Under the pieces are notes generated by a model. The model saw nothing but the letters and a program-made list of their open reading frames with translations. It was not told where the DNA came from and made no database searches. This document shows, in pieces, positions 8,201 to 27,581 of a stretch of DNA of 64,000 nt. The stretch covers positions 70,060-134,059 of the forward strand of contig DATMAN010000031.1 in the NCBI GenBank assembly GCA_035560005.1, read 5' to 3'. Within the stretch, counting starts at the first letter, position 1; each line of letters opens with the position of its first letter. Position numbers and translations under genes: made by a program. This DNA comes from Burkholderiales bacterium. GTDB taxonomy: Bacteria; Pseudomonadota; Gammaproteobacteria; Burkholderiales; Eutrophovitaceae.

Positions 8201-8487
8201 CATTCCACCAAGGGTTGATGCGCTGCTATGAGCGGCTGGGCCGGCGCACCGAAGCGCTGAGTGCGTACCGCCGGCTCAAGCAGACGCTGTCAGTAGTGCT
8301 GGGAGTTGCGCCTTCCGAGTCGACTCAGCAGCTTTTCCAGACGATGCTTCAACGGCAGAGTGCGCTGGGGAGCGGTGCGCGCGAACGCTCCTCGCACCTC
8401 GATGCGGAAGACGGTACTGGTTCCCAGCGCGAGGACACTGGCAATGTCGTGCGGAAACTGCCGCCACGCCGCAGGCAGGTGCGTTGA
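5206..8487 (+). CDS. STAND-class ATPase transcriptional regulator: MalT-like N-terminal NTPase, helical/TPR sensor region, C-terminal OmpR-type wHTH + BTAD
   Basis: MalT-like N-terminus (AKISRPRLFDVVPRERLFELL). Walker A SPPGAGKT and Walker B VVLVFDNYQE. C-terminus RILTLGRFEVQVNGRPMEF..KTLLLLKAIVAHGG..LCDALWGD followed by BTAD (WVDTWIFEKY..ETFHQGLMRCYERLGRRTEALSAYRRLKQTL). Confidence 0.85.
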   Translation: MSKTASPAKISRPRLFDVVPRERLFELLDGNRGRPLIWIASPPGAGKTALIASYLEARSIPTVWYQVDASDTDPATFFHYLSLAVEPLREGDDSPLPCFVAEHLADLPAFARLYFRAFFARLPQGVVLVFDNYQEIPEDALLHDIVCQCVAETPSDSSVICVSRAEAPRYFVQFAARGAMVLVGWEKLQLTLDEVRAVSLRRGVGDEWLIHALHQQSQGWAAGVTLMLERLGHLDCSGRELPSDSRESVFNYFASLIFDRVPESMRHVLLSVAFLPQVTPALARELSGRPDAATVLEDLYRRRMFTDRRPGPEPVYQFHALFQEFLRARARNVLPPKQFDALVGRTAFALQVADNVDAAISLWIAARDWQPVVQLIVKEAKGLLNSGRRQTLERWIGEVPESGRYSSPWLVYWLGCSQLQTRPEQGVKTLENALGLFHSAEDRRGSIACLTALLGGGYIGYAAIGAMDRWLDELQASSEEFSDALASDKQLQAWGALCCALIYVRPWDPMTTQALESVEELLPRCADAGIALTAAIGAVSACMLTGDLERGERILEQATELAERRGASPSEAAWWYCQVGYLKFVEAQYNDALRYLDKAIAIAESNALRSTIREIMLHRVTVECRTLGWARASATLTEIDALSRSSRPMNGSLYWLHQARRARFNGQSEQAVEFALAGYQAAVRSGARLWEMMIGLCVADLLIDAGRLKEAKPLIARSAELIGRTPVYDCYRAALSFVESWTALVAGDPQHATLRLREALGLAQGGTRRYYLCFLYCALPRLFMFALEEGIEVSVVQGLIGLFRLKPPTDAPENWPWPVRILTLGRFEVQVNGRPMEFSRKLPRKTLLLLKAIVAHGGRNVPEQVLCDALWGDEEADAALNALAITIVRLRKLLGTNEAVLYQAGRITLNAELCWVDTWIFEKYIADNGSAGRLLSIYRGAFLPDEEGEPWSVAARERLRGKFIDALSRYGATLEQQGDWQGAVQCYLRGIDADPIVETFHQGLMRCYERLGRRTEALSAYRRLKQTLSVVLGVAPSESTQQLFQTMLQRQSALGSGARERSSHLDAEDGTGSQREDTGNVVRKLPPRRRQVR

Positions 8488-15050: not shown

Positions 15051-15770
15051 GTGAAGGCACTTCCGCATCAACCAACGCTGGTCGATCAAGTCTACGAGGC
15101 GATCCTGTCGGAGATCTCAGCGGGCAAGTTCGCGCACGATAGCCGGCTGATTCAGGAAGAACTCGCCGAGTCGCTGGGTGTGTCGCGTCAGCCGATACAG
15201 CAGGCGCTGCTGCTGCTGAAGAGCCACGGCATCCTGCGCGATGCACCCGGGCGCGGATTGATGGTGGCGCCGCTGGAAGCCGAATTCGTGCGCAATCTGT
15301 ACGAGGTTCGGGGCGTGCTCGACGGGCTCGCCAGCAGCAAGGCGGCGGAACGCGCAGCCGTCACCGCCCGCAAGGAGGGCCCTGCCTTCATCAAACGCGG
15401 CCGCGAAGCGGTGGCCAGCCGTTCGATCCCGAAGATGATCGCGGCCGACATGGACTTCCATTTCTTCCTCTACGGCTTGTCGAGAAACCCGCTGATCGCC
15501 GAAGCCAGTTCGCCCTATTGGAGCTACCTGCGGCGAGTGATGGGTGAGGTGCTTCTGTACGACGAGACACCGGCAGAGATCTGGGACCAGCACGAGGCCA
15601 TTCTCGATGCGGTCATCGCAGCCGACCCGCAAAAAGCAGGGCAATTGGCGCGCGAGCACATCGCCCAGGCATCGGACACGATCACCGAGCGACTGGCGGC
15701 GCGGGCACCTGCCGGGCCGGCTCGCGTTGCATTGACGCGCGTGCGGCGCAGGCGCGCCCAGGGCGTCTAG
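15051..15770 (+). CDS. GntR family transcriptional regulator (FadR/FCD subfamily)
   Basis: GTG start. wHTH (LIQEELAESLGVSRQPIQQALLLLKSHGILRD) followed by an FCD-like helical C-domain. Confidence 0.9.
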   Translation: MKALPHQPTLVDQVYEAILSEISAGKFAHDSRLIQEELAESLGVSRQPIQQALLLLKSHGILRDAPGRGLMVAPLEAEFVRNLYEVRGVLDGLASSKAAERAAVTARKEGPAFIKRGREAVASRSIPKMIAADMDFHFFLYGLSRNPLIAEASSPYWSYLRRVMGEVLLYDETPAEIWDQHEAILDAVIAADPQKAGQLAREHIAQASDTITERLAARAPAGPARVALTRVRRRRAQGV

Positions 15771-16011: not shown

Positions 16012-17118
16012 TTACATCGCGTACTTTTTCACTGCCGCCTCGTCCCAGTCCAGACCGTTGCCGGGAGTGTCGGGCACGATGGCGTGGCCGTCTTTCGCCA
16101 GGAAGGGCTCGGCGAGGAAGGGCTCGGCCCAGTCGCTCCATTCCAGCCAGTCGGCGGATTCGCTCACGCGCAGCAGTTGCGCGGAGACCGGCGTGTAGAG
16201 GTGGCTCGACAGTGGCAAGCCCGCGGCGCCGGCGATCGCGGCCGAGCGCATCCAGCCGGTGACGCCGCCGATGCGCATGAGATCCGGCATGTAGAGGTCT
16301 GCCGCTTTGGCCAACACCGCCTTGTGGAACTCGCGCGGGCCATAGATGTTCTCGCCGATCTGGATCGGCGTTTTCATGTCGCGCGCGATCTGCGCGCAGC
16401 CTTCGTAGTTGTCGTACACGATCGGCTCTTCGAACCAGTACAGCCCCTGGTCGTCCAGCCCGTGCATGCGCTGCAGCGCCTCTCCGAAGGTGAGCCCCTG
16501 GTTGAAGTCGCTCATCAGGATGATGTCGTCGCCGACCGCGTCGCGCACGATGCGGATCGCCTCGATGTCGTCCTTCAGGCTCGGCCGGCCGAGGCGCATC
16601 TTGATCGCCCTGAAGTTGCCTTCTTCCACCAGCGACCTGGCTTCGGAGGCAAGCTTTTCTTTCGGGATCAGCCACAGGCCGTTGGTGTTGTAGGCGCGGA
16701 CCGGGCCGGGGCTACCCCCGAGCAGGGTCGCGAGCGGCAGGCCGGCGGCACGTGCGAGCGCGTCCCAGATCGCCATGTCGAGCCCGGACAGCGCGATCAA
16801 GGTCATGCCCTGGCGGCCGTTCAGATGCAGCGTCTTCATCGCCCCGCCGTACACGTCGAGCGGCGCGATCGGCTTGCCGATGAACTCCCCGGCGATGTTC
16901 TCGATCACTTGGGCGATCGGCTTCACCGCCTTGTGCACATACGGCTCGAGATAGCTGCGGCCGACCACGCCTTCGCGCGTGTGCACGTCGATCAGGATGA
17001 ACGGCCAGTTCGGATACTCGCCGACCCTGGAGACGATCGGCCGGCGCAGCGGCACGGACAGCGCCTGCACCTGCACGCTTTCCAGCGTGAGCCTGATCGC
17101 AGCGGTTCCGGTTTTCAT
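16012..17118 (-). CDS. Mandelate racemase / muconate lactonizing enzyme family (enolase superfamily) protein
   Basis: Capping domain (FILIDVHTREGVVGRSYLEPY) and barrel (AIKMRLGRP..DFNQGL..WFEEP..). GGAGGA-type RBS. Confidence 0.9.
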   Translation of the reverse strand: MKTGTAAIRLTLESVQVQALSVPLRRPIVSRVGEYPNWPFILIDVHTREGVVGRSYLEPYVHKAVKPIAQVIENIAGEFIGKPIAPLDVYGGAMKTLHLNGRQGMTLIALSGLDMAIWDALARAAGLPLATLLGGSPGPVRAYNTNGLWLIPKEKLASEARSLVEEGNFRAIKMRLGRPSLKDDIEAIRIVRDAVGDDIILMSDFNQGLTFGEALQRMHGLDDQGLYWFEEPIVYDNYEGCAQIARDMKTPIQIGENIYGPREFHKAVLAKAADLYMPDLMRIGGVTGWMRSAAIAGAAGLPLSSHLYTPVSAQLLRVSESADWLEWSDWAEPFLAEPFLAKDGHAIVPDTPGNGLDWDEAAVKKYAM

Positions 17119-17360: not shown

Positions 17361-17570
17361 ATGCGACCGCCACCCCCGGACCCGACTCTAGTGTTCCGGG
17401 CCTACGGCAATTCTGTCGAAGATTTCAGCCGGCAAACTCGTCATCGACGCTCGGCTGCGGCAGGAGGAACTGGCCGAGTCGTTGGGCGCTTCGCGCCAGC
17501 CGGTTCAGCACGCGCTGCTTCGCTAAATATGCACACCTGCACACATCCTGCGTGACGCAGCCCAAGCCCT
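17361..17570 (+). pseudogene. Truncated, frameshifted remnant of a second GntR-family gene (N-terminal wHTH only)
   Basis: MRPPPPDPTLV.. (compare MKALPHQPTLV). A 1-nt deletion near 17408 is followed by AILSKISAGKLVIDARLRQEELAESLGASRQPVQHALLR, then TAA at 17524 (compare AILSEISAGKFAHDSRLIQEELAESLGVSRQPIQQALLLLK). Nucleotide similarity continues to about 17570 (catcctgcgtgacgca). Confidence 0.7.
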
Positions 17571-17614: not shown

Positions 17615-18232
17615 ATGGACCAAGGGCAACTCAGGAGCTGCGCAGCAAAGGTATGCGGCTGCAGTGGCCAAGCATCGCAATCCCAAAGGTCGGTGGAATC
17701 CAGGCGGCGCATCTTTCGCCTAATCGCCGGCATCGCTGCCGGACTGGCTACCCGAACGGCTTTTGCAAACGACGAGGGCCAGATCCTGGTCGGAGACCGC
17801 CTCGTGCTTCACACCGCCCAAGGCGAACCGGTGGCACTGCGGCCCGCAGACGTCAAACCCGGCAAAGTGGTTCTGGCGTTTCCCTTCGACCCTGCGACCA
17901 AGAAGATTCGCAACGAATCGCGCCTGAGCAAGATCCTGCTGGTTCGGGTAGACGAATCCAGGTTCGACGAGGCGACGAGGCAACGCGCCGCTGGCGGCGT
18001 GCTGGCGTTTTCCGCCGTGTGCACCCATGCCGGCTGTGACGTCAACGCGTGGATGAAACAGACGCACAAGCTGCTTTGCTATTGCCATTCCTCACAGTTC
18101 GACCCCTACGCCTCCGGAAGGGTGGCGGAGGGGCCGGCGCCCCGCAGCCTGCCCTGGCTGCCGATAAGGCTGGAGGGTGAGGAGTTGGTGGTGGCTGGGC
18201 AACTGAGCGCTCCGGCGGGCGCGCCCGCCTAG
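17615..18232 (+). CDS. Tat-exported Rieske [2Fe-2S] domain protein
   Basis: Twin-arginine motif SRRRIFRLIAGIAAGLATRTAFA. Rieske boxes CTHAGC and CYCHSS. GGAG RBS. The longer ORF from 17297 is rejected. Confidence 0.85.
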   Translation: MDQGQLRSCAAKVCGCSGQASQSQRSVESRRRIFRLIAGIAAGLATRTAFANDEGQILVGDRLVLHTAQGEPVALRPADVKPGKVVLAFPFDPATKKIRNESRLSKILLVRVDESRFDEATRQRAAGGVLAFSAVCTHAGCDVNAWMKQTHKLLCYCHSSQFDPYASGRVAEGPAPRSLPWLPIRLEGEELVVAGQLSAPAGAPA

Positions 18233-18300
18233 ATTTCGACGACACAGCAACGGTCGTCTCCCGTGTCAGTACCTGCAACCGTGACAAGATCGGAGGAAAC

Positions 18301-20031
18301 ATGAGAAACACCAGAAAGAACAGGATCGGAGCGCTAGTGATCGCCCCCATCATGGCCATGGCGACCGCTCATGGCATGGACTACGTGCCAGTCACCGACG
18401 CCAGGCTGAAAAATCCTGAACCGGCCAACTGGCTGCAGTATCGCGGCAACTACGCTGGCTGGGGCTACAGTCCGCTGAAGCAGATCAACTCCAAGAACGC
18501 GAAGAACCTGACCGTGGCCTGGTCGTTCGCTACCGGGCAGGCGGAGGGCCATCAGTCGCCGCCGATCGTCAACAACGGCTATATGTTCATCACCACGCCG
18601 GGCAGCCAGGTGATCGCCCTCAACGCCAAAACCGGCGAAGAGATCTGGCGCTTCAAGAAAGAGCTGCCGAGGGATCTGCTGCAGCTGCACCCGACCAACC
18701 GCGGCGTAGCGCTGTATGGCGACAAAGTGTACTACACCACCCTCGATACCTTCTTGGTCGCGCTGGACGCCAAAACCGGCAAGCAGGTGTGGGAGTCGAA
18801 GATCGGCGAGTGGAAGCACGGGTACTACACCACGGTGGCGCCGCTCGCCGTCAAGGGCAAGATCCTTGTCGGCATTTCCGGCGGCGAGATGGGCGTTCGC
18901 GGATTCGTCAAGGCATTCGACGCCGAGAGCGGCAAGGAAGCGTGGGTATTTCACACCGTTCCCGCACCTGGAGAACCGGGCGGCGACACTTGGCCCGGCG
19001 AAACTTACAAGACCGGCGGCGGCGCCACCTGGGTCACCGGCACATACGACCCGGAAACCAACCTAACCTTCTGGGGCACCGGCAACCCCGGCCCGTGGCC
19101 CACCGAAGGCCGCAAGGGCGATAATCTCTACACGACCTCGGTGGTGGCGCTCGATGCGGATACCGGCAAACTCAAGGGCTACCACCAGTACCACTGGCAC
19201 GACGCCTGGGACTGGGATGAGGTGTCCGCGCCGGTGCTCATCGACACGGAGATCGGCGGCAAGAAGGTCAAGACCGCCGTGCACGCCGGCCGCAACGGCT
19301 ATCTCTGGGTACTGGAGCGCACGAAGGACAAGATGAACTTCCTCGCCGCGCACAAGTATGTCGAGCAGGATGTGTTCACCAGCATCGATCCGAAGACCGG
19401 CCGGCCGTCCTACGATCCCGCGCGCACCCCGGGCAAGGTGGCGACCACGTTCTGCCCGTCGCTGTGGGGCGGCAAGGACTGGCTGCCGGAAGCCTACAAC
19501 CCGGACACCGGCCTGTTCTACATCCCAGCCACCAACAACCTGTGCTCCGAATTGCCCGAGCCCGAAGAAGGCCTTGAGTACCAACCGGGTGGACTGTACA
19601 TCGGCTATCCGATTCCCGACGTACTGGGCAGCCTGCGCCTGGGCAAGAATGCGCACAAGAGCATCGGAGAAGTGCAGGCGTGGAACCTGAAGACCGGCAA
19701 GCAAGTCTGGACGCACACTTACAAGGGCATCAACTGGGGGCCGCTGCTGACCACCGGCGGTAACCTGGTGTTCGGTGGAGGCACGGCCGACCGTAAGTTC
19801 CGCGCCTTCAACGCTACTACCGGCGAAGTTGTGTGGGAGTACCCCACGCCGTCGGGCGTAACCGGAGTGCCGACCTCCTACGAGATCGATGGCGTCCAGT
19901 ACGTGGCCGTGCAATCAGGCTGGGGCGTGGATGCGCAGCGCATGCAAGCCGGCATCGATGCCGCCACCAACACCAAGACCAATGTCCCGCAGGGCGGCAC
20001 GGTCATGGTGTTCAAGCTGGGCAATAAGTAA
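18301..20031 (+). CDS. PQQ-dependent dehydrogenase, methanol/ethanol (quinoprotein ADH) family
   Basis: Signal peptide. Propeller W-motifs. GISGGEMGVRG (metal Glu), GTGNPGPW (Asn), HDAWDWDE (D304-W-D306). GGAGG RBS. Confidence 0.9.
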   Translation: MRNTRKNRIGALVIAPIMAMATAHGMDYVPVTDARLKNPEPANWLQYRGNYAGWGYSPLKQINSKNAKNLTVAWSFATGQAEGHQSPPIVNNGYMFITTPGSQVIALNAKTGEEIWRFKKELPRDLLQLHPTNRGVALYGDKVYYTTLDTFLVALDAKTGKQVWESKIGEWKHGYYTTVAPLAVKGKILVGISGGEMGVRGFVKAFDAESGKEAWVFHTVPAPGEPGGDTWPGETYKTGGGATWVTGTYDPETNLTFWGTGNPGPWPTEGRKGDNLYTTSVVALDADTGKLKGYHQYHWHDAWDWDEVSAPVLIDTEIGGKKVKTAVHAGRNGYLWVLERTKDKMNFLAAHKYVEQDVFTSIDPKTGRPSYDPARTPGKVATTFCPSLWGGKDWLPEAYNPDTGLFYIPATNNLCSELPEPEEGLEYQPGGLYIGYPIPDVLGSLRLGKNAHKSIGEVQAWNLKTGKQVWTHTYKGINWGPLLTTGGNLVFGGGTADRKFRAFNATTGEVVWEYPTPSGVTGVPTSYEIDGVQYVAVQSGWGVDAQRMQAGIDAATNTKTNVPQGGTVMVFKLGNK

Positions 20032-20070: not shown

Positions 20071-20110
20071 GACGCGGACCCGTAATTACCGGGTCCGCGT
20101 CATTGTTTCC
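20071..20110 (+). terminator. Stem-loop downstream of the PQQ dehydrogenase gene
   Basis: gacgcggacccg / taattac / cgggtccgcgtc: a perfect 12-bp stem followed by attgtttcc. Confidence 0.6.
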
Positions 20111-20380: not shown

Positions 20381-20591
20381 GCCTAACTGCTTGTCAGGCT
20401 CTACGGACTCATGGCGATCCCTGAAAACGCAAGAGCTCGAAACAGGTAGCGTCCGGAAGAAGACGCGCACGGACCTGGGCCGCCAGTAGCAGGAAAGCCT
20501 GTCGATCAACGGATTGAGACCTCGGCATCGGCGCCAGGCAGATGGCTTCGGCCGACGCGCAGAATTCTTGACCCTGGAGGCGGAAACACCC

Positions 20592-21902
20592 ATGTCGCAA
20601 ATCGCACGCGCCGCACCGCTGCCCCAGCCCGTGGCAGCTGAGAAACTCGCTTACCAGAAGGTCACGCTGCGGCTCGTGCCCTTCCTCTTCCTCTGCTATC
20701 TCGCCGCCTATCTGGACCGGGTGAACGTCGGCTTTGCCAAGCTGCAGATGCAAGACGATCTGGGTTTCAGCAGCACCGTCTACGGTCTTGGCGCGGGCAT
20801 CTTCTTCGTCGGTTACGTGCTGTTCGAGGTGCCGAGCAACATGATCCTGCACAAGGTCGGCGCAAAGCTGTGGATCGCACGCATCATGATCACCTGGGGT
20901 CTGATTTCCGGCGCGATGATGTTCGTGGAAACGCCGACGCAGTTCTACCTCCTGCGCTTCCTGCTCGGCGTGGCGGAAGCCGGGTTCATTCCCGGCGTGC
21001 TGCTCTACCTCACTTATTGGTATCCGGCGGCGCGCCGCGGTCGCATCGTCGCCCTGTTTCTGGCGGGCATTCCGGTCTCCAGCATCTTTGGCGGCCCGGT
21101 CTCCGGCTGGATTCTCAATACCTTCGCCGATGTCGGCGGTTTGCGCGGCTGGCAGTGGCTGTTCGTGATCGAAGCGATGCCGTCGGTGATTCTGGGCATT
21201 CTCACGTTGTTTCTTCTCGATGACGGGGTGCGCGACGTCAAGTGGCTCACCGAAGCCGAAAAACGCATCATCAGCGACCGCATCGCGGAAGAAAACCAGG
21301 AAAAAGGCGGCCACGCCGGTTTCGGCGATGCCTTCAAGAGCGGGCGCGTCTGGCTGTTGAGCGTGGCCTATTTCTTCTTTGCGAGCGCGATCTACGTCAC
21401 CAGCTTCTGGCTGCCGACGCTGATCAAGGCGCGCGGCGTGAACGACCCGCTGCACATCGGACTGCTAGTCGCCATCCCTTACACGGTGGCGACGATCGCG
21501 ATGATCTGGACCAACGTGCACGCCGACCGCACCCGCGAACGCCGCTGGCACGCCGCCTTGCCGTGCTTCCTCGCCGGAGTCGGGCTGCTGCTGAGCGCCC
21601 TGCCGGGGCAAGCTCTGGTTTACGGCATGCTGGCACTCACCTTGGCCACCGCGGGTGCCTGCGCCGCAGTGGCCGCCTTCTGGAGTCTGCCCGCAGCGTT
21701 CTTGGTCGGGGCCGCGGCGGCGACGGGCATCGCGCTGATCAATTCGCTGGGCAACGTCGCCGGATTCGTCAGCACCTCGCTGGTCGGGTGGATCAGCGAT
21801 CTGACTGGCAGCGCCCAGGCGAGCCTGTACCTGTTCGGTGCACTGATGTTCGTCGGTGGCGCGATGGTTCTGGCGATTCCGGCAAAGCTGGTTAACAAGT
21901 AA
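20592..21902 (+). CDS. MFS transporter, anion:cation symporter (ACS)-like
   Basis: LVPFLFLCYLAAYLDRVNVGFAKLQMQDDLGFS..GAGIFFVGYVLFEVPSN. 12-TM pattern. GGAGG RBS. Confidence 0.9.
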   Translation: MSQIARAAPLPQPVAAEKLAYQKVTLRLVPFLFLCYLAAYLDRVNVGFAKLQMQDDLGFSSTVYGLGAGIFFVGYVLFEVPSNMILHKVGAKLWIARIMITWGLISGAMMFVETPTQFYLLRFLLGVAEAGFIPGVLLYLTYWYPAARRGRIVALFLAGIPVSSIFGGPVSGWILNTFADVGGLRGWQWLFVIEAMPSVILGILTLFLLDDGVRDVKWLTEAEKRIISDRIAEENQEKGGHAGFGDAFKSGRVWLLSVAYFFFASAIYVTSFWLPTLIKARGVNDPLHIGLLVAIPYTVATIAMIWTNVHADRTRERRWHAALPCFLAGVGLLLSALPGQALVYGMLALTLATAGACAAVAAFWSLPAAFLVGAAAATGIALINSLGNVAGFVSTSLVGWISDLTGSAQASLYLFGALMFVGGAMVLAIPAKLVNK

Positions 21903-21926
21903 ACCTTACTCCTACGCGCACAACCC

Positions 21927-23582
21927 ATGGACGCTTCCAAGTACGGAACTCTTTACCAATCCTTGCAGCGCACCGCCGCGCGGTTCGGCGACCGGACGGC
22001 CTATGCGGTGCCGCCGATGGCCGGCCGCGCCTACCACCCGGAGGGCTGGGAGGTCACCTGGGCGCAGACCCTCGCTGCGGTCGAGGAGAAGAAGCGCATC
22101 TACGCGAACGCCGGCTATGGCTACGGGCACCGGGTCGCGATGCTGTTCGACCAGCGGCCGGAATTCTTCTTTCACTATTACGCGCTGAACGCGCTCGGCG
22201 CCGGCGTCGTCCCGATCAATCCCGATTACCGCGCCGACGAGATCCGCTATGTCGTGGAGCACTCGGAGGCGAGCCTCGCGCTCGCGATCGACAGCCGGCT
22301 CGCCGAGATCGAGGCGGTGGCGCGAGCGATCGGCGGCGTCCTGCCGGTGGTGTCCTTCGAGCGCTTTCCCGACCGTCTGCCTGCGCCGGCGCGCCCGGCG
22401 CAGGCTGGCACGCCGGGTCCCGACACCGAGGCCGCGCTGCTCTACACCTCGGGTACCACCGGGCGCCCGAAGGGCTGCATCCTCACCAACGAATACTTCC
22501 ACAGTTTCGGCGCCTGTTATCTTTCGCTCGGCGGCCGCCTGGAGTTTCGCGAAGGCGAAACACGCCTGTACAACCCGCTGCCCTTGCACCATGCCAATGC
22601 GCTGTCGGTCTCCACGCCCGCCCTGCTGCTGTGCGGCGGCTGCCTGATCTTTCCCGACCGCTTCCACGCCAGCACCTGGTGGAAGGACCTGATCGCCACC
22701 CGCGCGAACGCGGCCCAGTTCCAGGGCATCATCCCCAACATCCTGCTGAAACTGCCGCCCTGCCCGGAAGAGCGCCAGCACAGCGTGCGCTTTTCGCTGT
22801 GCGCCGGCGTCGAGCCCAGCCAGCATGAACTCTTCGAGAAGCGCTTCGGCTTTCCCGTCGTCGAGATGTGGGCAATGACCGAGACCGGTCGCCTCATCAG
22901 CGACAGCGTCGAGCCGCGCTCGATTCACACCCGGGCATTCGGGCGGCCCAACGCCTGGGTCGAGGTACGTGTAGTCGACGAGCAGGGTCGCGACCTGCCG
23001 CCCAACCAGCCCGGCGAAATGCTCATCCGCCACAGCGCGCAGACGCCGCGCAAGGGCTTCTTCTCCGGCTACCTCAAGAATCCCGAGGCGACCGAAGAGG
23101 CCTGGCGCGGCGGATGGTTCCATACCGGCGATGTCGTCGCGCGCGACGACACCGGCATGCTGTACTTTGTCGATCGCAAGAGAAACATCATCCGCCGCTC
23201 GGGCGAGAACATTGCCGCGGCCGAGATCGAGGCCTGTCTGACCGCGCACGACAAGGTGAAGCAGGTCGCTGTCATCGCCGCGCCCGACGAGGTGCGCGAG
23301 GAAGAAGTCATGGCCTGCGTGATCGCCAAGTCGCCCGAGGATGTCGCCACCGAAGAGGCGCGCAAGGCGCTGGCGCAGGCGCTGTTCGACTGGTGCTTCG
23401 AGCGCATGGCCTACTTCAAGGCACCGGGCTGGATACTGTTCGTCGACAGCCTGCCCACCGGCACGTCGGCCAAGGTGCAGAAGATCCACATCTTCCCCAC
23501 CGGTACCGACCCGCGCAAGCAGTCCGGCGCGATCGACCTGCGCGCGCAGAAGAAACAGACAAAGCCGGCCGTCTCCCACTGA
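21927..23582 (+). CDS. AMP-dependent synthetase/ligase (acyl-CoA synthetase family)
   Basis: AMP-binding motif LLYTSGTTGRPKG. ..GWFHTGD..DRKRNIIRRSGENI.. with a C-terminal SAKVQK. Confidence 0.9.
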   Translation: MDASKYGTLYQSLQRTAARFGDRTAYAVPPMAGRAYHPEGWEVTWAQTLAAVEEKKRIYANAGYGYGHRVAMLFDQRPEFFFHYYALNALGAGVVPINPDYRADEIRYVVEHSEASLALAIDSRLAEIEAVARAIGGVLPVVSFERFPDRLPAPARPAQAGTPGPDTEAALLYTSGTTGRPKGCILTNEYFHSFGACYLSLGGRLEFREGETRLYNPLPLHHANALSVSTPALLLCGGCLIFPDRFHASTWWKDLIATRANAAQFQGIIPNILLKLPPCPEERQHSVRFSLCAGVEPSQHELFEKRFGFPVVEMWAMTETGRLISDSVEPRSIHTRAFGRPNAWVEVRVVDEQGRDLPPNQPGEMLIRHSAQTPRKGFFSGYLKNPEATEEAWRGGWFHTGDVVARDDTGMLYFVDRKRNIIRRSGENIAAAEIEACLTAHDKVKQVAVIAAPDEVREEEVMACVIAKSPEDVATEEARKALAQALFDWCFERMAYFKAPGWILFVDSLPTGTSAKVQKIHIFPTGTDPRKQSGAIDLRAQKKQTKPAVSH

Positions 23583-23601
23583 GTGAAACAAGGATGATCC
23601 G

Positions 23602-25335
23602 ATGCTTCCTCCTCCGCTGACTCCCGACTGCACCGCCGGCGTCATCGCCCGCTTTCTGAAGGCGCGCAGTGTCGACCGCATCTTCGCCCTGTGCGGCGGC
23701 CACATCATGCCGATCTGGATGCGTGCGGATGCCGAGGGCATTCGCATCATCGACGTGCGCGACGAGCGCGCCGCCGTTTACATGGCCCATGCCCATAGCG
23801 AGCTGACCGGCGGCCTCGGAGTGGCGCTGGTCACTGCCGGCCCCGGCATGACCAACGCGATGACCGGCATCGCCAACGCGCACGTGTCCCGCGCGCCGGT
23901 GCTGGTGCTCTCCGGCGGGCCGCCGCGCCCGCAGGAAAACCGCGGCGGTCTTCAGGATCTGCCCCACGCCGACATGGCGCGTCCAATCACCCGTTATGCG
24001 CGCACGGTGCGCGAACCCGCACTGGTGCTGCAAGAACTGGACGAAGCGGTTTCGCGCGCCTTCGGTCAGGGCGGTGAGCCGGGACCGGTCTATCTGGACT
24101 TTCCGACCGACACGCTGCGCGCGGAGGTGCCGAAGCCGCTGCAGCTCGAAGAACACTTCCGGGTGAAACCGAAGCCGGTGCTGCTGCCCAACGACAACGA
24201 CGTGTCGGCAGCGGTGGAACTGCTGTGGTCGGCGAGGCGCCCGCTGGTGATCAGCGGTCGCGGCGCGCGCGGTGCGGCGCGGGAGTTGCGCGCGCTTCTG
24301 GACGCGCTTGGCGCGCCTTATCTCGACACCGGCGAAAGCAAGGGACTCATTGCCGAAGATCATCCAAGCGTGGTCGCTGCAATGCGTGGCGCGGTGATGG
24401 GCCAGGCCGACGTGGTGGTGACCGTCGGCCGGCGGCTGGATTTCCAGCTTGCCTACGGTTCGCCGGCGGTGTTCGGCGAGGCGAAGTTTCTGCGCATCGG
24501 CGATGTGCCCTCGGAGATCCGCGACAACCGGCGCGGCGCCGTCGAGCTTTTCGCGCAGCCGGCGGCGGCGCTGGCCGCCATCGTGCGCAAGGCGGGCGGC
24601 CGCGCGCCCTCGGTCGACCGCGCCTGGGCCGATGGCCTGCGCGAGAGGCATCTGGAGCGCGCGCAGAAGCTCAAGGCCTCGATGAGCACCGCCGCCTCGG
24701 ACGGTGAAGGACGCATTCATCCGAACCGGCTGCTCGCCGAGCTGCAGGCGCAGCTCAAGCCCGATGCGGTCATCATCGCCGACGGCGGCGATTTCCTCAG
24801 CTTCGCGCGCGTCGGTCTCGCCTGCTCGGTCTACCTCGATCCCGGCTCGCTCGGTTGCATCGGCATCGGTACGCCGTTCGGCGTGGCCGCCAGCCTGGCG
24901 CTCCCCGACAGGCAGGTGGTGGTCGCCACCGGCGACGGGGCGTTCGGCTTCAATGCGATGGAGATCGACACAGCGGTGCGTCACAAGGCGCCGGTGCTGA
25001 TCGTGGTGGCCAACAACGGCGCCTGGCAGATCGAGGTGCACGACCAGAGCGACACCCACGGCAAGGTCGTCGGGACAAAGCTGCAGTTTTCCGATCACGC
25101 GCAGATGGCGCGCGCCTTCGGCATGCACGCCGAGCGGGTGGAAAGGGCGGAGGACCTGAAGGGCGCGATTGCGCGCGCGCTGGACAATCGTCCCGCGCTG
25201 CTCGATGTCGTTGTGTCGCCCGAGGCGCGCTCCTCCGACGGCAAATCGGGGTTGGCGTGGGTGCCCGATCTGCAGCCGCTCGCCGCGTGGGACGACGCGG
25301 AGCGCAGCTGGCGAAGCGCGGTCCGTCATCGCTGA
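23602..25335 (+). CDS. Thiamine diphosphate-dependent enzyme (acetolactate synthase / oxalyl-CoA decarboxylase / 2-hydroxyacyl-CoA lyase superfamily)
   Basis: N-terminal Pyr domain (VALVTAGPGMTNAMTGIANA). C-terminal ThDP motif GDGAFGFNAMEIDTAVRHKAPVLIVVANNGAW. Confidence 0.9.
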   Translation: MLPPPLTPDCTAGVIARFLKARSVDRIFALCGGHIMPIWMRADAEGIRIIDVRDERAAVYMAHAHSELTGGLGVALVTAGPGMTNAMTGIANAHVSRAPVLVLSGGPPRPQENRGGLQDLPHADMARPITRYARTVREPALVLQELDEAVSRAFGQGGEPGPVYLDFPTDTLRAEVPKPLQLEEHFRVKPKPVLLPNDNDVSAAVELLWSARRPLVISGRGARGAARELRALLDALGAPYLDTGESKGLIAEDHPSVVAAMRGAVMGQADVVVTVGRRLDFQLAYGSPAVFGEAKFLRIGDVPSEIRDNRRGAVELFAQPAAALAAIVRKAGGRAPSVDRAWADGLRERHLERAQKLKASMSTAASDGEGRIHPNRLLAELQAQLKPDAVIIADGGDFLSFARVGLACSVYLDPGSLGCIGIGTPFGVAASLALPDRQVVVATGDGAFGFNAMEIDTAVRHKAPVLIVVANNGAWQIEVHDQSDTHGKVVGTKLQFSDHAQMARAFGMHAERVERAEDLKGAIARALDNRPALLDVVVSPEARSSDGKSGLAWVPDLQPLAAWDDAERSWRSAVRHR

Positions 25336-25469: not shown

Positions 25470-26219
25470 TTACACCGCCAGGACGCGTTCGAGGGCGACG
25501 CCGCGCACGTCCATCTCGTACTCGAGTTCGACGATCGGCGGGCTGCAGTAGTGCCAGGTCACACCGGGGCCGTTTCCGGTGCGCGGCAGTATCTCCTCCC
25601 GGAGCACGCCATGGATGTCGTGCACCGAGTACACCTGCACTGCGGTCGCGTCGCCCCACGATGCGCCGAGCCCCGCGAGACGCTCTTCCATCTTGCCGAG
25701 CACGAAGCGCACTTTTTGCCTAAGGCCCGCGGGCGTGACGTCGCCGCGCGCCACGATGTCCTCGGGGAAGCGGCCGCCTTCGGGCCATTCGCCGCTGCCC
25801 GCCGCGACGAAGTTGACCGCGGCGGCCGCGGGCACGCTGTAGCAGAACGCGTAGAAGCAGGGTTCGGCCGGCGGGGCAATCCGCGGCGCGACGTTGGAGC
25901 GCGCCACGGGGTTCAGGCCGTCGCGAAACAGGTTCCACTTGGTCAGGACGCCGACATAGCCTTCGTTGAAGGTCCGGAATCCGGCCATGGTGAGCGGCTG
26001 CGGCGAGCGCAGCTCGGCTGCGCAGAGCGCAGTGCGCGGCCTGCCGAGTGCCGCGAGATGCGCTTCGATGGCGGCGAAGCCGTGCAGCAGGGGAAGCGGG
26101 CGCGCGAAACGGACCCGCTCGATGGCGTGACCTTCCAGCGCCTTCACCCCTTGGGAGTAGGCAAAGCCGCCTTTGAGAAACGCGAAACCGCCATCTGGAA
26201 ACGGGATCAACTGCGCCAT
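25470..26219 (-). CDS. Conserved hypothetical protein. From memory it resembles the family annotated as CnbZ-like 2-aminomuconate deaminase; this is unverified.
   Basis: GGAGG RBS 5 nt before ATG 26219. MAQLIPFPDGGFAFLKGGFAYSQGV..ERVRFARPLPLL..ELRSPQPLT..NPVARSNVAP. Confidence 0.65.
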   Translation of the reverse strand: MAQLIPFPDGGFAFLKGGFAYSQGVKALEGHAIERVRFARPLPLLHGFAAIEAHLAALGRPRTALCAAELRSPQPLTMAGFRTFNEGYVGVLTKWNLFRDGLNPVARSNVAPRIAPPAEPCFYAFCYSVPAAAAVNFVAAGSGEWPEGGRFPEDIVARGDVTPAGLRQKVRFVLGKMEERLAGLGASWGDATAVQVYSVHDIHGVLREEILPRTGNGPGVTWHYCSPPIVELEYEMDVRGVALERVLAV

Positions 26220-26335
26220 TGCGCCTCCACGGATGCGCGCCGGCGATCTGGTCGTGCCGGCGCTCGGTGCCGAATGCACCGCAGTCTGGAGCAAAATAGC
26301 GCTCCGTGGAAGCTCGCGATGGAGACCGCAACGAC

Positions 26336-26746
26336 ATGAAGACTACCCTTGTACCCGGCCTTGCGTTGCTGCTCGCCGCCGGCCCCGCGCTGGCGCTCGA
26401 CGTCGAGGCCTACATCGATGGGCCGTTGCTCAAGCGCGAGCGGGTCATCGAGTTCGTCGGGAAACGGATCGGCGGGGCCGTGGCCAGGATGCCGGGCCTG
26501 GAAGAAGGCGGCCGTCATCGTCTGTTTGTCCGCGTGATCTCCGAGCGCACGGGACCCGGCAGCCGGTTCTCGTCGCTGGTGGACATCGAGTTGCAACGGC
26601 AGGTGATCGAGCAGGACACCGGCAACATCTATTGGGCGATGCTGCGCTCCGGGACCGCGTGGGGCAGCGTTCCCTCCGAGACGGAGTTGTGGCAGTGGAT
26701 CGCCGATTTGATCGAGCAGAAGGTCAACCTCTGGCCCGCGCACTGA
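26336..26746 (+). CDS. Small secreted hypothetical protein
   Basis: Signal peptide MKTTLVPGLALLLAAGPALA. Third-position G+C is consistent with coding. Confidence 0.6.
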   Translation: MKTTLVPGLALLLAAGPALALDVEAYIDGPLLKRERVIEFVGKRIGGAVARMPGLEEGGRHRLFVRVISERTGPGSRFSSLVDIELQRQVIEQDTGNIYWAMLRSGTAWGSVPSETELWQWIADLIEQKVNLWPAH

Positions 26747-26768
26747 AGGGTCCGGAAGGCATCGGCAC

Positions 26769-27581
26769 ATGCGCCCCCCCTTGCTGCGTGTAGCCATCGC
26801 CGGGCTGGGTGCGGTCGGCAAGGTGGTCGCGCGCAAGCTCGACGCAGGCATGCCGGGGTTGACGCTGAGCGCGGTTGCGGTGCGCGATGCGCGGCTCGCC
26901 GAGCGCTTCATCCAGACCTTGTCGCGGCGCCCGCCCGTCGTCGCGCTGGAGGCACTCGCGCAGTGCGCCGATATCGTGGTGGAGTGCGCACCAGCGCAGC
27001 TGCTCGCGCGGATTGCGGAACCGACCCTGGCGGCGGGAAAGAAGGTGGTGGTGCTGTCGGCGGGTGCGCTGCTCGCCAATCCGCAGCTCGAGCGCATCGC
27101 TGCACGCAACGGCGGGCAGATCCTGGTGCCGACTGGGGCGCTGATCGGGCTCGACGCGGTGCTTGCCGCCGCCGAAGGCCAAATTCACACGGTGCGCCTG
27201 GTCACGCGCAAACCGCCGAAGAGTCTCGAAGGCGCGCCCATGCTCGTCGAGAAGGGCGTCGACCTGTCGGATCTTCAGGCGCCCCTCAAGGTGTTCTCGG
27301 GCAGCGCGCGCGAGGCGGCGACCGGTTTCCCGGCCAATCTCAACGTGGCGGCGGCGCTCGCGCTCGCCGGAATCGGTCCCGAGAGGACCGAAGTGGAGGT
27401 CTGGGCCGACCCGGCGGTCACGCGCAACACCCACCACCTCGAGGTCGAGTCGGATGCGGCCCGCTTCAGCATGACCATCGAGAACATTCCCTCCGAGAAT
27501 CCGAAGACGGGGCGCATCACGGCACAAAGCGTGGTTGCCTTGCTGCGCAAGCTGACCGCGCCGGTTCGCATCGGCACTTGA
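26769..27581 (+). CDS. nadX: L-aspartate dehydrogenase (NadX-type)
   Basis: Rossmann motif VAIAGLGAVG. ..VVECA..GALIGLDA..FPANLNVAAALALAG..W.DP..RN.H. Family-typical length of 270 aa. Confidence 0.85.
   Translation: MRPPLLRVAIAGLGAVGKVVARKLDAGMPGLTLSAVAVRDARLAERFIQTLSRRPPVVALEALAQCADIVVECAPAQLLARIAEPTLAAGKKVVVLSAGALLANPQLERIAARNGGQILVPTGALIGLDAVLAAAEGQIHTVRLVTRKPPKSLEGAPMLVEKGVDLSDLQAPLKVFSGSAREAATGFPANLNVAAALALAGIGPERTEVEVWADPAVTRNTHHLEVESDAARFSMTIENIPSENPKTGRITAQSVVALLRKLTAPVRIGT

What the first reader, a model, noticed from the sequence alone, without database searches (positions are those of the whole stretch)
17615..20031. Quinoprotein dehydrogenase with the lanthanide-type Asp, no vicinal Cys-Cys, and a Tat-exported Rieske protein as apparent partner
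The 576-aa enzyme has the metal and PQQ ligands of the MxaF/XoxF/ExaA family:
- GGE in GISGGEMGVRG.
- N in GTGNPGPW.
- HDAWDWDE at nt 19201-19221, giving D304-W-D306.

An Asp two residues after the catalytic Asp is the established marker of lanthanide-dependent XoxF/PedH-type enzymes; Ca enzymes have Ala, Ser or Thr there.

The position where these families carry the adjacent Cys-Cys disulfide (..ACCDVVNRG..) reads LLQLHPTNRG here (nt 18676-18705). The mature protein has only two, non-adjacent Cys.

Instead of a cytochrome c gene, the gene immediately upstream (69-nt gap) encodes a Rieske [2Fe-2S] protein. It has CTHAGC and CYCHSS boxes and a twin-arginine signal (SRRRIF), so it should be periplasmic. 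No pqq biosynthesis, cytochrome c or mxaJ-like gene is present in the window.

A Rieske centre as redox partner of a PQQ alcohol-dehydrogenase-type enzyme is not the textbook arrangement. Together with the missing disulfide, it suggests an uncharacterised clade or electron route.
Basis: partly seen in the sequence, partly recalled or inferred. Interest (0 to 1): 0.75.

Follow-up and report, generated by a model that had tools for sequence, protein, structure and literature searches.

The report
Rieske-partnered lanthanide-type PQQ alcohol dehydrogenase
A two-gene operon encodes a periplasmic PQQ alcohol dehydrogenase with lanthanide-type metal ligands but without the family's hallmark cysteine pair, and it is almost always preceded by a gene for an exported Rieske iron-sulfur protein that probably takes the enzyme's electrons in place of the usual cytochrome c; the pair occurs in many bacteria, and I found no study of it.

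Summary
Window 17615-18232 encodes a Tat-signal Rieske [2Fe-2S] protein. Window 18301-20031 encodes a 576-aa PQQ dehydrogenase of the methanol/ethanol family. It keeps all four metal ligands of lanthanide-dependent PedH, including the extra Asp (D306). QLHPTNRG replaces the vicinal Cys-Cys, and the only cysteines are C385 and C415.

The pairing is not chance:
- 78 of 79 genome loci of the clade have the Rieske gene immediately upstream.
- 63 of 68 metagenomic loci of the Rieske family have a Cys-Cys-less PQQ gene immediately downstream.
- Only 5 of 61 loci have any CXXCH gene within 6 kb.

The Rieske domain is of the high-potential bc-type and is closest to the Thermus Rieske protein.

Best explanation (about 0.6): the Rieske protein is the dedicated periplasmic electron acceptor or small subunit of the enzyme. 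The arrangement is analogous to AioB in arsenite oxidase.

A Cys-Cys-containing sister clade also has the Rieske gene (5 of 6 sampled). Two divergent Cys-Cys-less members lack it.

Ten full-text literature searches found no description of a Rieske-PQQ dehydrogenase pair. I file it as a new variant of a known kind. It is testable in cultured Aromatoleum, Methyloversatilis, Zoogloea and Methyloferula.

The parts
17615..18232 (+). Gene for an exported Rieske [2Fe-2S] protein (205 aa). It has an n-region of about 28 aa with C9, C14 and C16, a twin-arginine motif SRRRIF (nt 17699-17716), a short h-region and an AFA|N cleavage-type site. Cluster box I is CTHAGC (18020-18037) and box II is CYCHSS (18077-18094).
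   Evidence: ORF. Pfam PF00355. Best solved relative is the Thermus thermophilus Rieske protein 1nyk/3fou, E 1e-30. In the AF2 model, residues 56-205 have pLDDT above 90; Foldseek to 1nyk gives TM 0.90 and rmsd 1.7 A. GGAG lies 7-10 nt before the ATG at 17615. The N-terminal extension is conserved in homologues.
18233..18300 (+). 68-nt intergenic spacer with a GGAGG ribosome-binding site before the PQQ dehydrogenase start. It contains no terminator-like hairpin.
   Evidence: Sequence; terminator scan.
18301..20031 (+). Gene for a periplasmic PQQ-dependent dehydrogenase of the methanol/ethanol family (576 aa, Sec-type signal peptide). Metal ligands are E196, N262, D304 and the lanthanide-type D306 (HDAWDWDE, nt 19198-19221). 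LLQLHPTNRG (nt 18676-18705) replaces the vicinal Cys-Cys. The only Cys are C385 and C415.
   Evidence: TIGR03075 568.9 bits against a cut-off of 480. PedH 6zcv E 1e-113 with residue-level alignment. AF2 pLDDT 78.6 and pTM 0.84; Foldseek top hit PedH with TM 0.80. Motifs are invariant in the clade. Coordinates.
20071..20101 (+). Terminator-like hairpin (12 pairs, 10 G-C) 40 nt after the PQQ dehydrogenase stop codon. It probably ends a bicistronic Rieske-PQQ operon.
   Evidence: This is a consensus scan only, and the tail is not a clean T-run.
15051..15770 (+). GntR/FCD-family regulator, a probable regulator of the locus. It co-occurs with the pair in 36 of 82 genome loci.
   Evidence: Pfam GntR plus FCD. 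Weak similarity to LldR/GlcC-type regulators. Co-occurrence.
20589..25335 (+). Probable downstream pathway genes: an ACS-type MFS transporter (20589-21902), an acyl-CoA ligase (21927-23582) and a 2-hydroxyacyl-CoA lyase (23602-25335). The link to the pair is inferred, not shown.
   Evidence: NF058623 2-hydroxyacyl-CoA lyase 823.7 bits against a cut-off of 600; HpaX/galactonate-type MFS; acyl-CoA ligase. The lyase is present near the pair in 36 of 82 loci and a ligase in 40 of 82.

Best explanation
The two genes form an operon for a periplasmic alcohol (possibly diol) oxidising system.

Shown or strongly indicated by sequence:
- The Sec-exported eight-bladed propeller enzyme has the residues that bind PQQ and a metal in this family.
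- Its metal-ligand set is the one found in lanthanide-dependent enzymes.
- The Rieske protein carries a Tat signal, so it would be folded, loaded with its [2Fe-2S] cluster in the cytoplasm, and then exported.
- The two genes are conserved as a pair.

Inferred:
- The substrate reduces PQQ to PQQH2.
- PQQH2 is reoxidised in two one-electron steps by the Rieske protein, which acts as the dedicated acceptor or a small subunit. It does the job that cytochrome cL, c550 or XoxG does for MxaF, ExaA/PedH or XoxF.
- The reduced Rieske centre then passes electrons to a soluble c-type cytochrome or cupredoxin encoded elsewhere, and so to a terminal oxidase or denitrification enzymes. This mirrors the Rieske subunit AioB of arsenite oxidase.
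- The enzyme depends on a lanthanide.
- In this clade the vicinal disulfide has been lost and replaced by a conserved Q-L-H-P-T loop. This loop may open or reshape the face of PQQ that the Rieske tip approaches. It is not a precondition for the Rieske partnership.
For: Enzyme:
- It passes the TIGR03075 cut-off and aligns end to end with PedH. E196, N262, D304, D306, R134, W244 and R331 are invariant across 26 clade members.
- The fold is confirmed by an AF2 model and Foldseek.

Gene linkage:
- The Rieske gene is immediately upstream, on the same strand, with gaps of 26-206 nt, in 78 of 79 genome loci. These span Aromatoleum, Zoogloea, Methyloversatilis, Leptothrix, Derxia, Polynucleobacter, Limnohabitans and Rhodoblastus.
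- It is also upstream in Methyloferula stellata.
- In the reverse direction, 63 of 68 Rieske-family loci from metagenomes have the PQQ gene 14-151 nt downstream.
- In the window there is no terminator between the two genes and a hairpin after the second.

Compartment:
- Both products are predicted to be periplasmic. The RR motif and an AxA-type site are conserved in the Rieske family.

Rieske type:
- It is of the bc-type, with both extra disulfide Cys (CTHxGC, CxCH) and a conserved Ser/Thr after the CxCHx box.

Missing cytochrome:
- The usual partner is absent. Only 5 of 61 loci have any CXXCH ORF within 6 kb, and the window has none.

Co-inheritance:
- Pairwise distances of the two proteins correlate with r = 0.83 over 117 pairs.

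Precedent:
- Arsenite oxidase uses a Tat-exported Rieske subunit that reduces cytochrome c552 (structures 8ed4 and 1g8k appear).
Against: - There is no biochemical, genetic or expression evidence.
- Gene adjacency does not show direct electron transfer.
- The acceptor of the Rieske protein is unknown and is not encoded nearby.
- I could not model the complex, because no coordinates are returned. The distance between the cluster and PQQ is therefore unknown.
- The redox potential is inferred from motifs only.
- The mirror-tree correlation is not specific. Other neighbour genes give r between 0.58 and 0.94.
- Two divergent Cys-Cys-less relatives have no adjacent Rieske gene.
- One relative, P0241, carries a fused cytochrome c domain. 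Cytochrome c routes therefore exist within the wider group.
- If the signal peptide is not cleaved, the Rieske protein would be membrane-anchored rather than soluble.
Confidence: 0.6

Rival explanations
1. The Rieske protein is functionally tied to the enzyme but is not its main electron acceptor. It might have a maturation, redox-activation, repair or regulatory role. The catalytic electrons would go to a c-type cytochrome encoded elsewhere.
For: - The Cys-Cys-containing sister clade keeps the disulfide that is linked to cytochrome c550 electron transfer in ExaA (PMC12997753), yet it also has the Rieske gene.
- P0241, a Cys-Cys-less relative, has a fused cytochrome c domain.
- The A. petrolei locus has a cytochrome c plus an SBP_bac_3 gene pair 8 kb upstream.
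Against: - Cytochrome c genes are absent from 56 of 61 neighbourhoods.
- bc-type Rieske proteins are known only as electron carriers.
- Tight 1:1 pairing with short gaps is typical of subunits or dedicated partners.
Confidence: 0.2
2. The enzyme uses Ca2+ or another metal rather than a lanthanide, despite the D-x-D motif.
For: - No member of this clade has been characterised.
- The residue context (W-D-W-D-E) differs from D-Y-D in XoxF and D-F-D in PedH.
- No lanthanide uptake or lanmodulin genes were seen in the window.
Against: - The extra Asp is treated as the signature of rare-earth-dependent enzymes (PMC11845868; bioRxiv 10.1101/2020.02.25.964783).
- It is invariant across the clade.
- It aligns with D325 of PedH.
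- Nearest solved relative by sequence search is lanthanide-dependent PedH.
Confidence: 0.15
3. The PQQ-like protein is a non-catalytic or 'empty' quinoprotein that binds no PQQ, and the pair has a function unrelated to alcohol oxidation.
For: - The second-best NCBIfam hit is TIGR04528, 'acido-empty-quinoprotein group A', at 417 bits.
- The hallmark disulfide is missing.
Against: - The TIGR04528 score is far below its cut-off of 650, while TIGR03075 is passed.
- All metal and PQQ-contact residues I could map are invariant.
- The neighbours are aldehyde dehydrogenases, alcohol-type sigma-54 activators and acid-utilisation genes.
Confidence: 0.04
4. The adjacency is incidental. The Rieske gene would belong to another system, such as a remnant of a bc-type complex or an oxygenase.
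For: [quoted passage not shown]
Against: - No cytochrome b, cytochrome c1 or oxygenase gene is nearby.
- Linkage is 78 of 79 in one direction and 63 of 68 in the other.
- The protein scores far below the cut-offs of every named Rieske family: 105 against 275, 38 against 97, and 42 against 96 bits.
Confidence: 0.01

Closest known systems
PedH / ExaF (lanthanide-dependent type I quinoprotein alcohol dehydrogenases; PDB 6zcv, 6zcw)
   Same: - Best sequence and fold match: E 1e-113, Foldseek TM 0.80, 36% identity in the Foldseek alignment.
- Same eight-bladed propeller.
- Same Glu, Asn, Asp and extra-Asp metal ligands.
- Periplasmic.
- Neighbours include aldehyde dehydrogenase and alcohol-responsive regulators.
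   Different: - No vicinal Cys-Cys. A one-residue deletion and QLHPT take its place.
- No PedF/ExaB cytochrome c550 gene. A Tat-exported Rieske gene is upstream instead.
- It forms a separate monophyletic clade in my neighbour-joining tree.
XoxF lanthanide-dependent methanol dehydrogenases (PDB 6dam, 4mae, 6oc5, 7o6z)
   Same: - Same family (TIGR03075).
- D-x-D motif.
- Foldseek TM 0.82-0.85.
   Different: - 33-36% identity.
- No xoxG (cytochrome c) or xoxJ genes.
- No Cys-Cys.
- Gene context points to multi-carbon alcohols and 2-hydroxy acids rather than methanol.
Arsenite oxidase AioAB (Rieske small subunit AioB; PDB 1g8k, 4aay, 8ed4)
   Same: - A periplasmic oxidoreductase whose small subunit is a Tat-signal Rieske protein that hands electrons to cytochrome c or azurin.
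- AioB is a structural match to the Rieske model, TM 0.7 on the target.
   Different: - The catalytic subunit is a molybdopterin/[3Fe-4S] enzyme, not a quinoprotein.
- Sequence similarity of the Rieske proteins is weak: E 2e-6, and TIGR02694 gives 42 bits against a cut-off of 96.
- Here the large subunit has its own Sec signal.
Rieske protein of the Thermus thermophilus bc complex (PDB 1nyk, 3fou) and actinobacterial QcrA
   Same: - Closest relatives of the Rieske domain: E 1e-30, 40% identity, TM 0.90, rmsd 1.7 A.
- Same cluster ligands and disulfide cysteines.
- These proteins oxidise a quinol.
   Different: - No cytochrome b or c1 partner genes.
- A short cleavable-looking signal rather than a membrane anchor.
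- Box II reads C(Y/F)CH(S/A/F)(S/T)(K/Q)F.
- It is paired with a soluble quinoprotein whose quinol is protein-bound PQQH2.
Type II quinohaemoprotein alcohol dehydrogenases (PDB 1kv9, 1yiq, 1kb0)
   Same: - Same catalytic domain: E 1e-85 to 1e-95.
- A built-in one-electron acceptor takes electrons from PQQH2.
   Different: - Their acceptor is a fused haem c domain. Here it would be a separate [2Fe-2S] protein.
- They keep the Cys-Cys and are Ca-type.
Cys-Cys-less quinoproteins with a DYD motif reported from marine archaea (reviewed in PMC11845868)
   Same: Same combination of a missing vicinal disulfide with a lanthanide-type Asp. Function is stated there to be unknown.
   Different: A different lineage. 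That review does not mention a Rieske partner. I did not compare the sequences.

Membership tests
PQQ-dependent dehydrogenase, methanol/ethanol family (TIGR03075; MxaF/XoxF/ExaA/PedH) | Whole-protein profile score above the curated cut-off | tested here: met
   568.9 bits against a cut-off of 480.05.
PQQ-dependent dehydrogenase, methanol/ethanol family (TIGR03075; MxaF/XoxF/ExaA/PedH) | Eight-bladed beta-propeller fold | tested here: met
   AF2 pLDDT 78.6, pTM 0.84. Foldseek TM 0.80-0.85 to PedH, XoxF, MxaF and ExaA.
PQQ-dependent dehydrogenase, methanol/ethanol family (TIGR03075; MxaF/XoxF/ExaA/PedH) | Metal ligands Glu, Asn and the catalytic Asp | tested here: met
   E196, N262 and D304 align with the PedH ligands and are invariant in 26 clade members.
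PQQ-dependent dehydrogenase, methanol/ethanol family (TIGR03075; MxaF/XoxF/ExaA/PedH) | Vicinal Cys-Cys disulfide over PQQ | tested here: not met
   The PedH CC aligns to L129 plus a gap. No CC occurs anywhere, and only C385 and C415 are present. The same holds in the 120 closest homologues.
PQQ-dependent dehydrogenase, methanol/ethanol family (TIGR03075; MxaF/XoxF/ExaA/PedH) | Dedicated c-type cytochrome acceptor gene (mxaG, xoxG, exaB or pedF) in the cluster | tested here: not met
   No coding-like CXXCH ORF in the 64-kb window. Only 5 of 61 related loci have one within 6 kb.
PQQ-dependent dehydrogenase, methanol/ethanol family (TIGR03075; MxaF/XoxF/ExaA/PedH) | Bound PQQ and alcohol-oxidising activity | not testable with these tools
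   This needs purified protein.
Lanthanide-dependent subgroup (XoxF, ExaF/PedH) | Additional Asp two residues after the catalytic Asp | tested here: met
   D306 aligns with PedH D325. WDWDE is invariant. The signature status of this Asp is taken from PMC11845868.
Lanthanide-dependent subgroup (XoxF, ExaF/PedH) | Side chain of that Asp points at the metal in three dimensions | tested here: inconclusive
   The model superposes on PedH, but the tool returns no coordinates. Only the alignment supports this.
Lanthanide-dependent subgroup (XoxF, ExaF/PedH) | Activity requires Ln3+ rather than Ca2+ | not testable with these tools
   This needs an experiment.
Acido-empty-quinoprotein group A (TIGR04528) | Profile score above the cut-off and loss of PQQ/metal ligands | tested here: not met
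   417.3 bits against a cut-off of 650. The ligands are retained.
bc-type (high-potential) Rieske iron-sulfur proteins | CxH ... CxxH cluster ligands plus the two extra Cys that form the loop disulfide | tested here: met
   CTHAGC and CYCHSS. C136, H138, C141, C155, C157 and H158 are invariant in 20 homologues.
bc-type (high-potential) Rieske iron-sulfur proteins | Rieske fold with a cluster-binding subdomain | tested here: met
   Residues 56-205 have pLDDT above 90. Foldseek to 1nyk gives TM 0.90 and rmsd 1.7 A.
bc-type (high-potential) Rieske iron-sulfur proteins | Twin-arginine export signal | tested here: met
   SRRRIF. The RR motif is conserved in the family.
bc-type (high-potential) Rieske iron-sulfur proteins | Membership of a cytochrome bc1, b6f or bcc complex (adjacent cytochrome b and c1 genes; score above a named-family cut-off) | tested here: not met
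   No such genes are in the window or in related loci. NF050121 gives 105.5 against 275 bits, TIGR01416 gives 38.5 against 97.4, and NF045928 gives 43 against 250.
Arsenite oxidase small subunit AioB (TIGR02694) | Profile score above the cut-off and pairing with a molybdopterin AioA subunit | tested here: not met
   41.6 bits against a cut-off of 95.65. The partner is a PQQ propeller enzyme.

The most novel reading that the evidence does not exclude
These enzymes would be a previously unrecognised class of quinoprotein/iron-sulfur dehydrogenases. A soluble periplasmic Rieske protein would dock on the PQQ funnel and oxidise protein-bound PQQH2 directly. The chemistry would be histidine-mediated proton-coupled electron transfer, like ubiquinol oxidation at the Qo site of bc1. 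The Rieske protein would replace cytochrome c as the entry point of alcohol-derived electrons into the respiratory or denitrifying chain. In the Cys-Cys-less clade, the conserved Q-L-H-P-T loop would take over the role of the vicinal disulfide at that interface.
Probability: 0.4. Interest if true: 0.85.

Novelty: new variant of a known kind. Interest (0 to 1): 0.72.

Why it matters
Every characterised soluble PQQ alcohol or methanol dehydrogenase passes its electrons to a c-type cytochrome, free or fused. The vicinal disulfide is treated as a hallmark of the family and is linked to that electron transfer.

A large and widespread clade has a lanthanide-type active site, lacks the disulfide, and has a dedicated Rieske [2Fe-2S] partner. 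If the inference holds, three things follow:
- It would add a new kind of physiological acceptor for quinoproteins.
- It would give a natural experiment on what the disulfide is for. Sister clades with and without it share the Rieske partner.
- It would widen the set of predicted lanthanide-using organisms. This includes abundant freshwater bacteria (Polynucleobacter, Limnohabitans), denitrifying Rhodocyclales (Aromatoleum, Zoogloea) and methylotrophs or methanotrophs (Methyloversatilis, Methyloferula).

Several of these organisms are cultured and some are genetically tractable, so the hypothesis can be tested directly.

The recurrent neighbours are 2-hydroxyacyl-CoA lyase, CoA ligase, LutABC and aldehyde dehydrogenase. 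They also suggest an undescribed periplasmic entry into diol and 2-hydroxy-acid catabolism.

Tried and rejected
- Literature. None found a paper that links a Rieske protein to a PQQ alcohol dehydrogenase. The hits mentioning both were unrelated: the bc1 Rieske subunit in M. universalis, intracellular Rieske proteins in Bathyarchaeia, and a NosGH reference.
- Papers not held. Keltjens et al. 2014 and the Thauera butanivorans BOH paper are not in the library. I could not exclude that an older subscription-journal paper mentions the gene pair or places BOH in this clade.
- Mdh2. I considered whether the enzyme is Mdh2 of Methyloversatilis. I rejected this: Mdh2 has its own cytochrome c and MxaJ-like genes (PMC5023235), and the Methyloversatilis member of this clade lies in a different locus (L047, L049).
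- Complex modelling. I prepared 43 paired Rieske-linker-PQQ sequences but did not submit them.
- Mirror-tree co-evolution. It gave r = 0.83 but is not specific. Other neighbours give 0.58-0.94.
- The idea that loss of Cys-Cys and gain of the Rieske gene are one event was tested and rejected.
- Rfam and tRNA scans of the window found nothing.
- The first ORF clustering of neighbourhoods was polluted by spurious high-GC ORFs. I replaced it with targeted tblastn.
- The look-up of P0121, the 99%-identical Rieske protein, found no contig on record.


Full report
**Observation**

The 576-aa product of 18301-20031 (+) passes the curated cut-off of the PQQ methanol/ethanol dehydrogenase family (TIGR03075, 568.9 bits against 480). 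It matches Pfam PQQ. Motif coordinates are:
- LLQLHPTNRG at 18676-18705.
- GISGGEMGVRG at 18871-18903.
- GTGNPGPW at 19075-19098.
- HDAWDWDE at 19198-19221.

The protein has exactly two cysteines, C385 and C415.

The 205-aa product of 17615-18232 (+) matches Pfam Rieske. It carries SRRRIF, CTHAGC and CYCHSS. The spacer is 68 nt.

**The dehydrogenase**

By sequence, the best solved relative is the lanthanide-dependent PedH of Pseudomonas putida (6zcv, E 1e-113). Next come XoxF (6dam), quinohaemoprotein ADHs, ExaA and MxaF.

In the residue-level alignment to PedH:
- D304 and D306 align with PedH D323 and D325.
- E196 and N262 align with the other two metal ligands.
- The PedH Cys-Cys aligns with L129 plus a one-residue gap, followed by H130.

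An AF2 model (pLDDT 78.6, pTM 0.84) has PedH as its top Foldseek match (TM 0.80). All solved family members match at TM 0.8-0.85.

Across 26 clade members, E196, N262, D304, D306, N133, R134, W244, R331, C385 and C415 are invariant. From my own knowledge of methanol dehydrogenase, R134, W244 and R331 correspond to PQQ-contacting residues, and C385/C415 to the second, structural disulfide.

The extra Asp is regarded as the signature of rare-earth-dependent enzymes (PMC11845868; bioRxiv 10.1101/2020.02.25.964783). The vicinal disulfide has been linked to electron transfer to cytochrome c550 (PMC12997753). By sequence the enzyme therefore looks like a competent, lanthanide-type quinoprotein that lacks the hallmark disulfide. 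Metal dependence is inferred, not shown.

**The Rieske protein**

- Its closest solved relatives are the Thermus thermophilus Rieske protein (1nyk/3fou, E 1e-30) and actinobacterial QcrA. b6f and bc1 Rieske proteins and arsenite oxidase AioB follow.
- The AF2 model is confident for residues 56-205. It superposes on 1nyk at TM 0.90, rmsd 1.7 A and 40% identity. AioB matches at TM about 0.7.
- It is far below the cut-off of every named Rieske family in NCBIfam.
- The family conserves the four cluster ligands and the two extra cysteines that form the loop disulfide of bc-type Rieske proteins.
- It conserves a Ser/Thr two residues after the ligand His. This is the position of the potential-raising Ser of bc1, by my own knowledge. 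It has Phe where bc1 has Tyr. I infer a moderately high potential.
- The twin-arginine motif, a short h-region and an AxA-type site are conserved. This suggests a cleaved signal and a soluble periplasmic protein, but cleavage is not shown.

**Operon**

- GGAG and GGAGG ribosome-binding sites precede both start codons.
- No terminator-like structure lies between the genes.
- A hairpin with 12 pairs follows the second gene at 20071-20101.

**Is the pairing more than chance?**

I scanned one genome per species for relatives of the enzyme and kept the 80 best loci (63-96% identity). With two Aromatoleum petrolei loci added, 79 loci have room upstream.
- 78 of them have a homologue of the Rieske gene directly upstream on the same strand, with gaps of 26-206 nt.
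- The remaining one has it 2.7 kb upstream.

Hosts include Aromatoleum, Zoogloea, Methyloversatilis universalis FAM5 and EHg5, Leptothrix discophora, Derxia gummosa, Denitromonas, Polynucleobacter, Limnohabitans, Rhodoferax, Methylibium and the alphaproteobacterium Rhodoblastus. Methyloferula stellata has the pair too.

In the reverse direction, I scanned metagenome contigs with a Rieske-family alignment.
- 68 loci had at least 400 nt downstream.
- 63 of these have a PQQ dehydrogenase gene 14-151 nt downstream.
- Every one is Cys-Cys-less (H-x-T-[NS]-R-G), and WDWDE is present wherever that region is covered.
- One exception pairs the Rieske gene with a di-haem peroxidase/MauG-like gene.

All 120 closest protein homologues carry QLHPTNRG-type sequence, and none has CC.

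**How the two oddities relate**

In a neighbour-joining tree of 50%-identity representatives, the H-x-T-x-R-G / WDWDE proteins form one clade. It sits next to Cys-Cys-containing D-x-D lineages (P0246, P0249, P0254). The nearest solved relative of those lineages is again PedH. The tree has no bootstrap support values.

Gene neighbourhoods of that Cys-Cys-containing sister group also show a homologous Rieske gene directly upstream in 5 of 6 cases. These are P0392, P0400, P0406, P0410 and Carboxydochorda subterranea P0415; P0411 lacks it. Their Rieske proteins are 33-40% identical to the window's.

Conversely, two divergent Cys-Cys-less members have no adjacent Rieske gene. They come from Gemmatimonadetes (YHDTNRG) and Pseudohongiellaceae (FHRTNRG). 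One representative, P0241, has an N-terminal cytochrome c domain.

The Rieske partnership is therefore broader and probably older than the loss of the disulfide. It does not require that loss.

**Context and likely substrate**

The window has no coding-like CXXCH ORF and no pqq or MxaJ-type gene among the 41 ORFs scanned. Only 5 of 61 related loci have any CXXCH ORF within 6 kb.

Two neighbourhood types recur:
- Type A: a sigma-54 MimR-type activator, the pair, a MetA-like outer-membrane channel, DUF1097 and an aldehyde dehydrogenase. It is seen in Aromatoleum petrolei, Zoogloea, Methyloversatilis and Derxia.
- Type B, as in the window: a GntR/FCD regulator, an ACS-type MFS transporter, an acyl-CoA ligase and a 2-hydroxyacyl-CoA lyase (NF058623, 824 bits against 600). 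The lyase is present in 36 of 82 loci.

Methyloferula has LutABC lactate-utilisation genes and a GntR gene next to the pair.

I infer, with low to moderate confidence, that many members oxidise 1,2-diols or similar alcohols to 2-hydroxy acids in the periplasm. The acids would then be imported and either cleaved as CoA esters or oxidised by LutABC.

**Mechanism proposed**

Substrate oxidation reduces PQQ. The Rieske protein then reoxidises PQQH2 in one-electron steps and passes the electrons to a cytochrome c or cupredoxin encoded elsewhere.

The closest functional precedent is arsenite oxidase. Its Tat-exported Rieske subunit reduces cytochrome c552 (8ed4, listed). Rieske centres are also the natural oxidants of quinols in bc complexes.

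What is shown: the sequence features, predicted localisation signals and conserved gene pairing. What is inferred: electron transfer, potentials, metal dependence, signal cleavage and substrates.

**Novelty**

Ten full-text searches found no paper that links a Rieske protein to a PQQ alcohol dehydrogenase. A 2024 review notes Cys-Cys-less DYD quinoproteins in marine archaea as being of unknown function (PMC11845868). Public annotations call the Rieske protein a bc1 subunit.

Two older subscription-journal papers that might bear on this could not be read.

I file the system as a new variant of a known kind: a member of the PQQ-ADH family that fails two family hallmarks (the vicinal disulfide and the cytochrome c partner) and has a new kind of predicted acceptor.

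**Limits**

- No coordinates are returned by the structure tool, so neither the orientation of D306 nor a docking interface could be inspected.
- The sister-clade and divergent-member samples are small (6 and 2).
- Co-evolution (r = 0.83) is not specific.

Noticed in passing
window 17406-17519: A truncated copy of the 5' end of the GntR/FCD regulator gene lies just upstream of the Rieske gene. It is 78% identical over 116 nt to 15098-15211 and translates to ...AILSKISAGKLVIDARLRQEELAESLGASRQPVQHALLR*. It looks like a remnant of a rearrangement. In many relatives a GntR gene lies about 1.6 kb upstream of the PQQ gene (roughly 1 kb before the Rieske gene), whereas here an enolase-superfamily gene (16012-17118, minus strand) lies in between.
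   Followed up: partly
window 17615-17698 (Rieske n-region); also A2 and P0121-P0240: The Tat signal has an unusually long n-region of about 21-28 aa before the twin arginine, and this region is Cys-rich. The window protein has C9, C14 and C16. Of 111 database homologues, 93 have at least one Cys there and 61 have a CxC or CC motif. I have no explanation. Chaperone or metal binding before export is a guess.
   Followed up: partly
window 20589-25335; L003-L082: An ACS-type MFS transporter, an acyl-CoA ligase and a 2-hydroxyacyl-CoA lyase (equivalog NF058623, 824 bits) follow the pair. The lyase accompanies the pair in 36 of 82 genome loci and a GntR/FCD regulator in 36. This suggests a route from diol to 2-hydroxy acid to 2-hydroxyacyl-CoA to formyl-CoA plus an aldehyde or ketone.
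   Followed up: partly
L083 3936-7685 (Methyloferula stellata): LutABC lactate-utilisation genes and a GntR regulator lie divergently next to the Rieske-PQQ pair. This is a second, independent link of the pair to 2-hydroxy-acid metabolism.
   Followed up: no
L167, L168, L169, L170, L174 (Cys-Cys-containing sister clade): PQQ dehydrogenases that keep VCCDVVN(R/K)G also have an upstream Rieske gene. It is often preceded by a small SCO4226-like gene. Large TonB-dependent or OMP_b-brl_4 outer-membrane receptor genes lie next to the pair in L169 and L174, and next to the Rieske-less PQQ gene in L171. The receptors might relate to lanthanide or substrate uptake.
   Followed up: partly
P0241 (1075 aa) and P0245 (831 aa): Some relatives carry an N-terminal cytochrome c domain fused to the PQQ domain. 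P0241 is Cys-Cys-less (TQLHPTNRG) and P0245 is Cys-Cys-containing. I could not check whether these are real fusions or gene-calling artefacts, or whether they also have a Rieske neighbour.
   Followed up: no
L097 1-1668: Here a Rieske homologue of this family is followed by a 354-aa di-haem cytochrome c peroxidase/MauG-like gene instead of a PQQ dehydrogenase. A CCP_MauG gene also lies about 6 kb from the pair in Methyloferula.
   Followed up: no
L001 11810-14669 and about 18 other loci: A second recurrent neighbourhood has the pair followed by a MetA-like outer-membrane channel (PF13557), DUF1097 and an aldehyde dehydrogenase. A sigma-54 MimR_N-type activator lies nearby. This layout is typical of alcohol or hydrophobic-substrate oxidation operons.
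   Followed up: partly
window 5206-8487: A 1093-aa AAA/TPR/BTAD (SARP/AfsR-like) regulator gene lies in a stretch with lower G+C (about 0.60) than the rest of the window.
   Followed up: no
window 25470-27581: A CnbZ-type 2-amino-5-chloromuconate deaminase homologue (332 bits against a cut-off of 220) and an aspartate dehydrogenase (416 bits against 253) lie just beyond the lyase gene. A relation to the locus is unknown. Neither is conserved near the pair in other genomes.
   Followed up: no
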